Of a stretch of DNA of 64,000 bases, positions 21,171 through 21,539 are shown one piece after another. The notes under the pieces were generated by a model. The model had not been told where the DNA came from and ran no database searches. It saw nothing but the letters and a program-made list of their open reading frames with translations. Within the stretch, counting starts at the first letter, position 1. Every line of letters starts with the position of its first letter. The position numbers and the translations under genes were made by a program. The stretch spans positions 24,763 through 88,762 of IMG/VR virus record IMGVR_UViG_3300037466_002533. The stretch is one strand, 5' to 3'. The stretch is from a virus (Duplodnaviria; Caudoviricetes).

Positions 21171-21309
21171 GGACAGATATAGAGGCGGCCTTGGTCTTTC
21201 GTCAGCCCGCTCTACCACTTGAGCTACCAGCCCCGAAATGGAACTGGACGGGATTCGAACCCGCAACCTAGCTGGTTCATAGAAGTATCCATGACCTGCG
21301 CACCTGTCC
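21171..21309 (-). ncRNA. yrlA: YrlA-type Y RNA #1 (139 nt)
   Basis: Terminal stem GGACAGGTGCG.../...ATATCTGTCC; internal T-arm GCGGG-TTCGAAT-CCCGT, closed acceptor hairpin CCAGTTC/GGGGCTGG, then D-arm GCTC-AAGTGGTA-GAGC; adjacent to the Ro60 gene. Confidence 0.85.
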
Positions 21310-21321
21310 TACCAGGTAGCT

Positions 21322-21452
21322 GAGCAGATATAAGTCGCACGAGGAAATGTTAGCGCTCTGCCATTGAGCTACCGCCCCATTGGAGCGGCCGGGACTCGAA
21401 CCCGGATCTCTCTGTTCATAATCAGAAGTAACCTCGAACTACGCACCTGCTC
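21322..21452 (-). ncRNA. yrlA: YrlA-type Y RNA #2 (131 nt)
   Basis: Terminal stem GAGCAGGTGCG.../...ATATCTGCTC (covaries with #1); T-arm CCGGG-TTCGAGT-CCCGG, acceptor hairpin CCGCTCC/GGGGCGG, D-arm GCTC-AATGGCA-GAGC. Confidence 0.85.
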
Positions 21453-21539
21453 TGGTGAGGATGGAGGGATTCGAACCCCCTAAGCCAATGGCGGCGCGGT
21501 TACGGCGCGCTACGACCACTCCATCGTCGTCGCATCCTC
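21453..21539 (-). tRNA. trnY: tRNA-Tyr(GUA), C33, CCA encoded
   Basis: GCGCG-CCGTAAC-CGCGC, long variable arm. Confidence 0.85.

What the first reader, a model, noticed from the sequence alone, without database searches (positions are those of the whole stretch)
21171..21539. Two tandem Y RNAs with a covarying Ro-binding stem, the first fused flush to a tRNA-Tyr CCA
Seen: both RNAs share RCAGGUGCG(U/C)AG...UACUUC...[T-arm, acceptor hairpin, D-arm]...AUAUCUG, and their closing stems covary (GGAC/GUCC versus GAGC/GCUC). Y RNA #2 begins at the nucleotide right after the Tyr CCA (0-nt gap), so tRNA 3' cleavage would create its 5' end. Only 11 nt separate the two Y RNAs, and rsr follows with its own candidate promoter (TACACT at 21145-21150). 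Automatic annotation would likely miss these or call them pseudo-tRNAs. Two paralogues with different internal linkers may tether Ro to different partners (inference from Rsr-Y RNA-PNPase).
Basis: partly seen in the sequence, partly recalled or inferred. Interest (0 to 1): 0.75.

Follow-up and report, generated by a model that had tools for sequence, protein, structure and literature searches.

The report
Three phage Y RNAs before Ro gene
A soil phage carries three small structured "Y RNAs" just upstream of its Ro60 (rsr) gene, inside its tRNA cluster; two contain a tRNA look-alike and the first starts on the base after a tRNA's CCA end, making this a well-supported but expected new example of a known Ro/Y-RNA system.

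Summary
On the minus strand, Y-A (21452..21322) starts on the base after the CCA of tRNA-Tyr. Both have a terminal stem, a GGUGCG(U/C)AG / UAUAUC internal loop, a second helix, an invariant UACUUC, and a T-arm, acceptor hairpin and D-arm in that order.

The Rfam YrlA model matches only the tRNA-like core (36-37 bits, threshold 69). A model built here from ten such RNAs, the two window RNAs among them, recovers both (105 and 118 bits) and finds 26 further modules next to rsr in 11 other phage loci and one bacterium. On the 35-module alignment of 12 phage sources, 94.7% of cells pair and 27 of 30 pairs show double changes.

It lies between a recurrent phage promoter box and the rsr start, which is GTG at 21039.

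tRNA/Y spacers of 0-5 nt recur in other phages, so excision by tRNA-processing enzymes is plausible but untested. One metatranscriptome contig covers Y-A and part of Y-B, which is only a weak hint of expression.

Phage Ro/Y RNA pairs are already published, so this is a new member of a known kind. Earlier notes of this scan on this same genome already list three Y RNAs.

The parts
21453..21539 (-). tRNA-Tyr(GUA), class II (long variable arm), with encoded CCA at 21455-21453. It has unusual C8 and C33 and scores below the Rfam tRNA threshold.
   Evidence: ARAGORN; fold; 3' ends; Rfam (best clan hit 20.9 bits).
21322..21452 (-). Y-A, a YrlA-type Y RNA of 131 nt. Terminal stem 21452-21444 with 21330-21322 (C21443 bulged, 3-nt bulge 21333-21331), UACUUC 21430-21425, T-arm 21405-21389, 7-bp acceptor hairpin 21388-21372, D-arm 21369-21355.
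   Evidence: Rfam YrlA 36.0 bits, E 3.5e-6, core only; fold; model R1 105 bits (Y-A is one of R1's ten seeds).
21310..21321 (-). 12-nt spacer between Y-A and Y-B.
   Evidence: Sequence. Y-Y spacers of 7-18 nt are typical in relatives.
21171..21309 (-). Y-B, a YrlA-type Y RNA of 139 nt. Terminal stem GGACAG/CUGUCC, T-arm 21264-21248, 8-bp acceptor hairpin 21247-21227, D-arm 21224-21209. GCCA follows the 3' end.
   Evidence: Rfam YrlA 37.1 bits, E 1.7e-6; fold; R1 118 bits (Y-B is one of R1's ten seeds). ARAGORN's tRNA-Arg(tct) at 21240-21318 is a chimera inside it.
21145..21163 (-). Promoter-like box AAAAAGAT-TGTGC-TACACT (-10-like TANNNT preceded by TG).
   Evidence: AAAGAT-N3-8-TANNNT occurs 12 times in the 88.7-kb record against 0.68 in shuffles, 10 of the 12 on this strand. 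The generic sigma-70 scan does not list it.
21060..21132 (-). Y-C, a short hairpin-type (YrlB-like) Y RNA of 73 nt with no tRNA-like domain. GGUUCC-GGUGUGCUG ... UUACUUC ... UUAUAUC-GGAACC. It ends 20 nt before the rsr start codon.
   Evidence: R1 31.3 bits, E 2.6e-6, full model with the tRNA-like domain deleted; fold z -3.8.
19378..21039 (-). rsr (Ro60 orthologue, TROVE plus vWA with a DxSxS motif). GTG start at 21039, ribosome-binding site GGAGGAAC at 21050-21043.
   Evidence: Pfam TROVE 4.1e-16; PDB phiLo Ro60 9KOP/9L5Y 4e-22; 33-39% identity to actinophage 'Ro-like RNA binding proteins'.
12667..13824 (-). Context: rtcB RNA ligase on the same strand, at the far end of the tRNA array.
   Evidence: Pfam RtcB 9.3e-105.

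Best explanation
The stretch encodes an array of three Ro60-binding Y RNAs upstream of the phage's own rsr gene. Each RNA pairs its 5' and 3' ends into a terminal helix. That helix runs into a conserved asymmetric internal loop or bulge (5' GGUGCG/GGUGUG, 3' UAUAUC), which is inferred to be the Ro60 docking site. A second helix follows, then an invariant single-stranded UACUUC. The apical module is a circularly permuted tRNA-like domain (T-arm, acceptor hairpin, D-arm) in Y-A and Y-B and a plain loop in Y-C. Y-A and Y-B sit inside the phage tRNA array and are probably co-transcribed with tRNA-Tyr. They are probably released by the enzymes that trim tRNAs, which is inferred. Y-C and rsr probably have their own phage promoter, also inferred. 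By analogy with Deinococcus, Salmonella, M. smegmatis and Thermus phage phiLo, the RNAs gate Ro60 and tether it to a host exoribonuclease such as PNPase. Together with the phage tRNAs, RtcB ligase and CCA-adding enzyme they would form an RNA supply, surveillance and repair set used during infection. Shown here: structure, conservation, covariation and synteny. Inferred: Ro binding, processing route and partner.
For: The Rfam YrlA model matches the T-arm/acceptor/D-arm core of both RNAs (37.1 and 36.0 bits, E about 1e-6). The minimum-energy fold of Y-A gives a 9-bp terminal stem, a bulged C and a 3-nt bulge opposite it. An alignment of ten modules gives a consensus fold in which 20 of 30 pairs carry compensatory changes. 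Model R1 was built from those ten, Y-A and Y-B among them. It scores Y-B at 118, Y-A at 105 and Y-C at 31 bits; every other window hit is 22 bits or less, mostly partial matches to tRNA arms. R1 finds 35 modules at E<1e-5 in 12 sources, all beside an rsr gene and on its strand, 26 of which were not used to build it. On that alignment 94.7% of cells pair against 36-46% for slid partners, 27 of 30 pairs have double changes, and the terminal stem scores 5 of 5. A bacterial rsr locus that was not used to build R1 (Marinactinospora, 42% Rsr identity) has one module 40 nt upstream at 88 bits. Y-A and Y-B are 57% identical with 8 compensated double changes. Rsr is intact. tRNA/Y spacers of 0-5 nt recur in BRock, L009, Atuin and L016. 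No terminator-like site lies between tRNA-Tyr and rsr. The promoter box is enriched. RtcB and a CCA-adding-type enzyme are present. Published precedent: M. smegmatis Rsr binds YrlA and YrlB, which are made from one precursor; D. radiodurans makes a Yrn2-tRNA-Asp-Yrn1 precursor; phiLo Ro60 binds two upstream Yrl RNAs and PNPase (PMC4201824, PMC12135203).
Against: Both RNAs score far below the Rfam YrlA gathering score (69 bits), and only the core aligns. The published 5' motif GNCGAAN0-1G is met only partly (GCGUAG, GCGCAG, GUGCUG). There is no binding, end-mapping or expression data. The only RNA evidence is one 178-nt metatranscriptome contig at depth 3, and contigs cannot show ends and may derive from DNA. 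The covariation alignment was fitted to the model's structure, which inflates pairing somewhat. With CCA encoded and a 0-nt spacer, the usual bacterial route (a downstream cut followed by exonuclease trimming) would destroy the Y-A 5' end, so the processing enzyme is unclear.
Confidence: 0.85

Rival explanations
1. The elements are decayed or tandem pseudo-tRNAs. A T-arm of one dead tRNA followed by a D-arm of the next imitates YrlA, with no function of their own.
For: They lie in a tRNA array. ARAGORN calls a tRNA-Arg(tct) inside Y-B. Rfam tRNA gives 28.8 bits across the two RNAs. Chen et al. warn that dimeric tRNAs can score as YrlA. Weak YrlA-model hits occur in 13 of 14 control genomes.
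Against: The T-arm/hairpin/D-arm core is enclosed by two long-range helices that covary across 35 modules. The flanking motifs (G[A/G]UGCG, UACUUC, U-rich 3' strand) are conserved only next to rsr genes. There is no anticodon arm. A version without any tRNA part (Y-C) keeps the same stem and motifs.
Confidence: 0.03
2. They are cis-acting structured spacers, serving as processing or stability elements of the tRNA/rsr transcript or as a leader regulating rsr translation. They would not be trans-acting Ro partners.
For: Y-C ends 9 nt before the rsr Shine-Dalgarno sequence and would lie in the 5' UTR if the 21163-21145 promoter is used. L012 shows the same layout.
Against: In BRock-like phages the array is separated from rsr by a terminator-like hairpin (L010). 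In Atuin and L016 modules lie downstream of rsr, between tRNAs. A cis role for Y-C does not exclude Ro binding; autoregulation would in fact need it.
Confidence: 0.06
3. They are Ro-independent tRNA mimics whose main role is to decoy or titrate tRNA-targeting host defences (anticodon nucleases, tRNA-modifying or tRNA-binding factors). Their position next to rsr would be only a matter of linkage.
For: The locus sits among 35 or so tRNAs with rtcB and a CCA enzyme. A permuted tRNA-like element without a Ro stem gives a local R1 hit at 14215-14277.
Against: The most conserved parts are the terminal stem, the internal loop and UACUUC, not the tRNA-like part. Roughly a third to two-fifths of the 35 modules lack most or all of the tRNA-like part (11-16 of 35, by helix). 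Linkage to rsr holds in every locus examined.
Confidence: 0.04

Closest known systems
Mycobacterium smegmatis YrlA and YrlB (Chen et al. 2014, PMC4201824)
   Same: Actinobacterial type. A tRNA-like Y RNA and a shorter Y RNA lie upstream of rsr on the same strand and are made from one precursor. The acceptor hairpin has 7 bp. Judging from the probe and primer sequences printed in the paper, the 5' motif is of the GAUGUG/GGUG kind and an ACUUCU stretch is present.
   Different: The window has two tRNA-like paralogues plus one short RNA, is phage-encoded, and is embedded in a tRNA array with a 0-nt junction to a tRNA CCA. [quoted passage not shown]
YrlA-like RNAs of mycobacteriophages and other phages (22 phages in Chen et al. 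2014; Rfam RF02553)
   Same: Phage-encoded Ro60 with a YrlA-related RNA within 4 kb on the same strand.
   Different: Rsr here is at most 39-42% identical to any phage or bacterial homologue found. The RNAs fall below the Rfam threshold. I found no published description of arrays of 3-4 modules in Streptomyces, Gordonia or Arthrobacter phages in the library searched, and they are unannotated in the five GenBank records I looked at.
Thermus phage phiLo Ro60 with Yrl1 and Yrl2 (PMC12135203; PDB 9KOP, 9L5Y)
   Same: Two Y RNA-like RNAs lie just upstream of a phage Ro60 gene. The protein is the best PDB match to the window's Rsr (E 4e-22). It assembles with host PNPase.
   Different: As described, the phiLo Yrls are stem-bulge-stem RNAs with a CGAA motif, and no permuted tRNA domain or tRNA-array setting is reported. 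The host phylum differs.
Deinococcus radiodurans Yrn2-tRNA-Asp-Yrn1 precursor (Chen et al. 2014)
   Same: Y RNAs and a tRNA are co-transcribed upstream of rsr, so tRNA processing helps to release the Y RNAs.
   Different: It is bacterial, the arrangement of the tRNA-like parts differs, and the spacer lengths are not known to me.
Salmonella Typhimurium rsr-yrlBA-rtcBA RNA repair operon
   Same: Rsr, Y RNAs and RtcB are linked in one co-oriented locus.
   Different: Here rtcB lies about 5.5 kb from the 3' end of rsr, beyond 27 ARAGORN tRNA calls. I saw no RtcR/sigma-54 control and no RtcA.

Membership tests
YrlA-type bacterial/phage Y RNA (Chen et al. 2014; Rfam RF02553) | Encoded within 4 kb of a Ro60/Rsr (TROVE) gene, on the same strand | tested here: met
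   rsr is 19378..21039 (-) (Pfam TROVE 4e-16; PDB phiLo Ro60 4e-22). Y-A, Y-B and Y-C lie 20-413 nt upstream on the same strand.
YrlA-type bacterial/phage Y RNA (Chen et al. 2014; Rfam RF02553) | 5' and 3' ends pair into a terminal stem that carries the Ro-binding site | tested here: met
   Folds. The terminal helix has 5 of 5 pairs with double changes and 96% of cells paired across 35 modules. Ro binding itself was not tested.
YrlA-type bacterial/phage Y RNA (Chen et al. 2014; Rfam RF02553) | Conserved 5'-strand motif GNCGAAN0-1G | tested here: inconclusive
   The window has GUGCGUAG, GUGCGCAG and GUGUGCUG, so the CGAA core reads CGUA, CGCA and UGCU. Related phage modules read GAUGCG(A/U/C)AG, some with an exact GCGAAG.
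YrlA-type bacterial/phage Y RNA (Chen et al. 2014; Rfam RF02553) | tRNA-like domain in the order T-arm, acceptor-like hairpin, D-arm | tested here: met
   The Rfam YrlA local alignment covers model positions 23-86 and 28-81 with a UUCGAAU/UUCGAGU T-loop and an AGCUCAA..GG.AGAGC D-arm. This holds for Y-A and Y-B only; Y-C lacks the domain.
YrlA-type bacterial/phage Y RNA (Chen et al. 2014; Rfam RF02553) | Score at or above the Rfam gathering threshold (69 bits) | tested here: not met
   Scores are 37.1 and 36.0 bits, and nothing is reported at gathering. The bacterial Marinactinospora RNA next to rsr also reaches only 33.3 bits. The Rfam model therefore under-detects this actinobacterial/phage subtype, although Chen et al. 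do count such RNAs as YrlA.
YrlA-type bacterial/phage Y RNA (Chen et al. 2014; Rfam RF02553) | Physically bound and stabilised by Rsr; present as a discrete small RNA | not testable with these tools
   The only data are one metatranscriptome contig (178 nt, 2 mismatches) on 21274-21449 and none on rsr or tRNA-Tyr. This is a weak hint and gives no ends.
Hairpin-type Y RNA (YrlB / Yrn2 kind), for Y-C | Ro-type terminal stem and loop without a full tRNA-like domain, encoded between YrlA and rsr | tested here: met
   R1 aligns Y-C end to end with the 72-position tRNA-like block deleted (31 bits). Short modules of 70-110 nt occur in L009, L010, L011, L016, L017, BRock and Atuin.
Canonical tRNA (rival for Y-A and Y-B) | Cloverleaf with acceptor stem formed by the 5' and 3' ends, and an anticodon arm | tested here: not met
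   No Rfam tRNA hit reaches the gathering score in 21171-21452. The 28.8-bit hit joins the D-arm of Y-A to the T-arm of Y-B across an 84-nt insert. ARAGORN's Arg(tct) reads the conserved UACUUCU as an anticodon loop.

The most novel reading that the evidence does not exclude
In actinophages, Y RNAs are units of the tRNA array itself. They would be cut out by RNase P, RNase Z and the CCA enzyme at 0-5 nt junctions. Those with a 7-8 bp acceptor hairpin would be nicked and given a CCA end, as M. smegmatis YrlA is. Y-A carries the alanine identity set (G1-G4 / C69-C72 with G3.U70, and A73), and the 88.7-kb record has tRNAs for 19 amino acids but none for Ala. Y-A could therefore be an aminoacylatable, tmRNA-like alanine acceptor tethered to Ro60. 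Separately, Y-C in the rsr leader could let Ro60 regulate its own translation.
Probability: 0.08. Interest if true: 0.7.

Novelty: new member of a known kind. Interest (0 to 1): 0.35.

Why it matters
This adds a distant, soil-phage example (Rsr at most 42% identical to any homologue found) to the Ro60/Y RNA system. Many actinophages turn out to carry unannotated arrays of 2-5 Y RNAs beside rsr. In GenBank records some of these are mislabelled as a tRNA (VanLee tRNA-Arg(tct)) or covered by small hypothetical ORFs (Rabbitrun gp93 and gp94). The model and conserved motifs found here, including the invariant UACUUC, could be used to improve the Rfam YrlA model and phage annotation. The tight tRNA/Y junctions and the linkage with RtcB and a CCA enzyme offer a testable picture of how phages package RNA quality control together with tRNA supply. 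None of this overturns current understanding.

Tried and rejected
- Megablast and blastn of 21000-21700 against the phage collection gave nothing useful; the only hit was a 74-nt match to Gordonia phage GMA2.
- Rfam at the gathering score found no YrlA.
- The window's exact motifs (CAGGUGCG, UAUCUG) do not occur in relatives, because those use GAUGCG and UUUCUA. My first stem-finder failed on the window for the same register reason.
- The generic sigma-70 scan does not list the 21145 site. A fixed-spacing AAAAGAT pattern found only one site. The flexible pattern was needed.
- Laying contigs from public runs showed no cover of rsr or tRNA-Tyr in the RNA run. Contig ends (21449, 21274) cannot be read as RNA ends, so I draw no conclusion on transcription or processing from them.
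- The tRNA-Ala-mimic idea is not a family feature: U70.G3 is present in only 6 of the 22 modules with letters at that pair, and BRock-like phages that have it also carry a true tRNA-Ala.
- The supplements of Chen et al. 2014 and the 2020 Annual Review are not held, so I could not check which phages or how many copies were listed there.

Full report
WHAT IS THERE

The window is part of an 88.7-kb IMG/VR virus record, window = C1:24763-88762, estimated 59% complete. ARAGORN makes 37 tRNA calls on the minus strand between 13906 and 23119. At least one of them is false.

Reading the minus strand:
- tRNA-Tyr(GUA) runs 21539..21453 and ends in an encoded CCA (21455-21453).
- The next base, G21452, opens a 131-nt RNA, Y-A (21452..21322).
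- After a 12-nt spacer comes a 139-nt RNA, Y-B (21309..21171).

Both RNAs share the same layout:
- a 6-bp closing stem (GAGCAG/CUGCUC in Y-A, GGACAG/CUGUCC in Y-B);
- the 5' string GUGCG(U/C)AG;
- a second helix;
- (U/A)UACUUC;
- a T-arm with UUCGA(A/G)U;
- a 7-8 bp hairpin in the place of an acceptor stem;
- U-A followed by a D-arm (GCUCAA..GG.AGAGC);
- a 3' UAUAUC just before the closing strand.

The rsr gene follows at 19378..21039. It is a TROVE protein (Pfam 4e-16), its best solved relative is Thermus phage phiLo Ro60 (E 4e-22), and a DxSxS vWA motif is visible in the translation. Its start is the GTG at 21039, after GGAGGAAC at 21050-21043. My protein queries began one codon too early, at ATC 21042, which does not affect any result.

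IS IT MORE THAN CHANCE?

- The signature GCGNAG-N(2-20)-(U/A)ACUUC occurs only at these two places in 64 kb, both strands.
- Both RNAs fold better than their shuffles (z -2.95 and -2.66). The minimum-energy fold of Y-A has a 9-bp terminal stem, a bulged C, a 3-nt bulge on the opposite strand, and then the T-arm, hairpin and D-arm.
Scores are 37.1 and 36.0 bits (E 1.7e-6 and 3.5e-6 in a 651-nt search) against a gathering score of 69. Nothing is reported at the gathering score.

RELATIVES

Near-identical phages are absent from or withheld in the collections. Rsr homologues of 27-42% identity were found in IMG/VR contigs, in Streptomyces, Gordonia and Arthrobacter phages, and in one bacterium.

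Upstream of rsr, or flanking it, these loci carry 2-5 tandem modules with the same plan:
- a closing stem of free sequence;
- G(A/G)UGCGNAG;
- a helix of free sequence;
- an invariant (U/A)UACUUC;
- an apical insert that is either a tRNA-like domain, a T-arm only, or a plain loop;
- a 3' CG..UUUUCU(A/C).

Ten tRNA-like modules align well, and RNAalifold returns the expected five helices with compensatory changes in 20 of 30 pairs. I built a covariance model from them, R1. Y-A and Y-B were two of its ten seeds, so their own scores are partly circular.

R1 results:
- Y-B scores 118 bits and Y-A 105 bits.
- All other window hits outside this locus are 22 bits or less, mostly partial matches to tRNA arms.
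- Over 12 sources, 35 modules pass E<1e-5, and 26 of them were not used to build the model.
- On that alignment 94.7% of cells form standard pairs, against 36-46% when partners are slid by 1-3 columns. 27 of 30 pairs carry double changes, the closing stem 5 of 5 and the second helix 8 of 8.
- The alignment was fitted to the model, which flatters the pairing figure. The spread of pair types (four to six per pair in the closing stem) is not something fitting can create.
- Y-A and Y-B are 57% identical, with eight double changes that keep pairing.
- As an independent check, Marinactinospora rubrisoli was not used to build R1. It has a single module 40 nt upstream of its rsr at 88 bits, with GGUGCGCAG and UUACUUC. 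The Rfam model gives it only 33 bits, so the Rfam threshold misses this actinobacterial subtype in general.

A THIRD Y RNA AND THE PROMOTER

R1 also finds a 73-nt module at 21132..21060 (31.3 bits, E 2.6e-6), aligned end to end with the tRNA-like block deleted. It reads GGUUCC-GGUGUGCUG ... UUACUUC ... UUAUAUC-GGAACC. It folds with z -3.8 and ends 20 nt before the rsr GTG. I found it before opening the scan's notes, which list the same element.

Following a note of this scan, I tested AAAGAT-N3-8-TANNNT. It occurs 12 times in the record against 0.68 in shuffles, 10 of the 12 on the minus strand. A phage promoter driving Y-C plus rsr is therefore plausible, although the generic sigma-70 scan does not list the site.

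THE tRNA JUNCTION

- The 0-nt gap is real.
- Only tRNA-Tyr, tRNA-His, tRNA-Ser(gga) and a D-armless tRNA-Arg(UCU) encode a full CCA.
- No terminator-like site lies between tRNA-Tyr and rsr.
- In relatives, tRNA-to-Y or Y-to-tRNA spacers of 2-5 nt recur: BRock 2, L009 2, Atuin 3/3/2/4, L016 5. Y-Y spacers are 7-18 nt.

Y RNAs therefore behave as units of phage tRNA arrays, and release by tRNA-end-processing enzymes is the economical reading. Which enzyme cuts at CCA|G is unknown. The usual route of a downstream cut followed by exonuclease trimming would destroy the Y-A 5' end.

Published precedent comes from PMC4201824. D. radiodurans makes a Yrn2-tRNA-Asp-Yrn1 precursor. M. smegmatis YrlA, which has a 7-bp acceptor hairpin, is cleaved by RNase P and receives a CCA end in vivo. 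Y-A (7 bp) and Y-B (8 bp) have such hairpins.

CONTEXT

- rtcB lies at 12667-13824 (Pfam 9e-105).
- An HD protein and an HNH nuclease follow on the same strand.
- A CCA-adding-type enzyme (PolyA_pol head, RNA-binding and HD domains) lies at record positions 599-2059.

This mirrors the bacterial linkage of rsr, yrl and rtcB.

RNA EVIDENCE

One rhizosphere metatranscriptome run holds a 178-nt contig (depth 3.2, two mismatches) on 21274-21449. That covers Y-A, the spacer and the 5' part of Y-B. The run has nothing on rsr or on tRNA-Tyr.

One of the two differences turns a G-C pair of the Y-A acceptor hairpin into G.U. Contigs cannot show ends or exclude DNA, and this is a single study, so it is only a weak hint. 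Identical DNA pieces occur in two other soil or rhizosphere studies.

COMPARISON WITH WHAT IS KNOWN

YrlA-like RNAs next to Ro60 were reported in 254 bacteria and 22 phages, including several copies per locus (PMC4201824). Phage phiLo Ro60 binds two upstream Yrl RNAs and host PNPase (PMC12135203).

Membership outcome:
- Met: synteny with rsr, terminal stem, permuted tRNA-like domain.
- Partly met: the 5' motif.
- Not met: the Rfam score threshold.
- Untestable here: Ro binding.

I file Y-A and Y-B as divergent YrlA-type Y RNAs and Y-C as a YrlB-type Y RNA, that is, a new member of a known kind.

Incremental points:
- Arrays of 2-5 modules occur in many actinophages and are unannotated in the five GenBank records I opened.
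- VanLee's annotated tRNA-Arg(tct) is the 5' half of a 78-bit module.
- Rabbitrun gp93 and gp94 overlap Y modules.
- ARAGORN makes false tRNA calls inside modules in five of the loci.

VERDICT

Interest is moderate to low.

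Noticed in passing
window 13860-13896 (-): An Rfam abiF RNA motif hit at 51 bits, above its gathering score of 37. It lies between rtcB and the first tRNA of the array.
   Followed up: no
window 17772-17623 (-): A D-armless tRNA-Arg(UCU) with a long variable arm and encoded CCA directly abuts an odd tRNA-like RNA with a CCG anticodon, a 7-bp anticodon stem and a 5-nt D-loop. ARAGORN gives overlapping 89-nt and 93-nt calls here, and Rfam YrlA gives a weak 24.6-bit full-length hit.
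   Followed up: partly
window 14215-14277 (-): A local R1 hit (21.8 bits, model positions 47-103, the tRNA-like core only) lies between two tRNA-Thr genes.
   Followed up: partly
window 13906-23119 (-), all tRNAs: Almost every tRNA gene encodes only C74 (one Thr has CC) after the discriminator base. Only Tyr, His, Ser(gga) and the D-armless Arg(UCU) encode a full CCA. A phage CCA-adding-type enzyme is encoded at record positions 599-2059.
   Followed up: partly
whole record G000; Y-A hairpin at window 21388-21372: The 88.7-kb record has tRNAs for 19 amino acids but none for Ala. The Y-A acceptor hairpin has GGGG/CUCC with G3.U70 and A73, the alanine identity set. U70.G3 occurs in 6 of the 22 modules with letters at that pair. 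The record is only about 59% complete, so this may be coincidence.
   Followed up: partly
window 21453-21539 (-): tRNA-Tyr has C at positions 8 and 33, where U is nearly universal. It scores under 21 bits on the Rfam tRNA model.
   Followed up: no
window 15988-18626 (-): All five tRNA-Leu calls are 75-77 nt, so they lack the long variable arm that bacterial tRNA-Leu normally has.
   Followed up: no
record-wide; window sites 416, 5750, 9065, 11159, 18944, 21161, 30885: AAAGAT-N3-8-TANNNT occurs 12 times against 0.68 expected, mostly on the minus strand in front of genes. It is likely a phage-specific promoter element.
   Followed up: partly
L022 (Gordonia phage VanLee) 1170-1307; L021 (Rabbitrun) 979-1382: There are GenBank annotation problems. 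VanLee's tRNA-Arg(tct) at 1171-1242 is the 5' half of a Y RNA module (78 bits). Rabbitrun's hypothetical genes gp93 and gp94 overlap Y RNA modules.
   Followed up: partly
35 modules of alignment A3; window 21430-21425, 21287-21282, 21107-21102: UACUUC at the 3' side of the second helix's 5' strand is present in all ten seed modules and all three window modules, in both tRNA-like and hairpin types. Its partner (Ro60 or an effector) is unknown. I did not find it discussed in PMC4201824.
   Followed up: partly
L024 (Marinactinospora rubrisoli) 1324-1461: This is the closest bacterial Rsr (42% identity). It has one YrlA-type RNA 40 nt upstream, which ARAGORN miscalls as tRNA-Leu(gag).
   Followed up: yes
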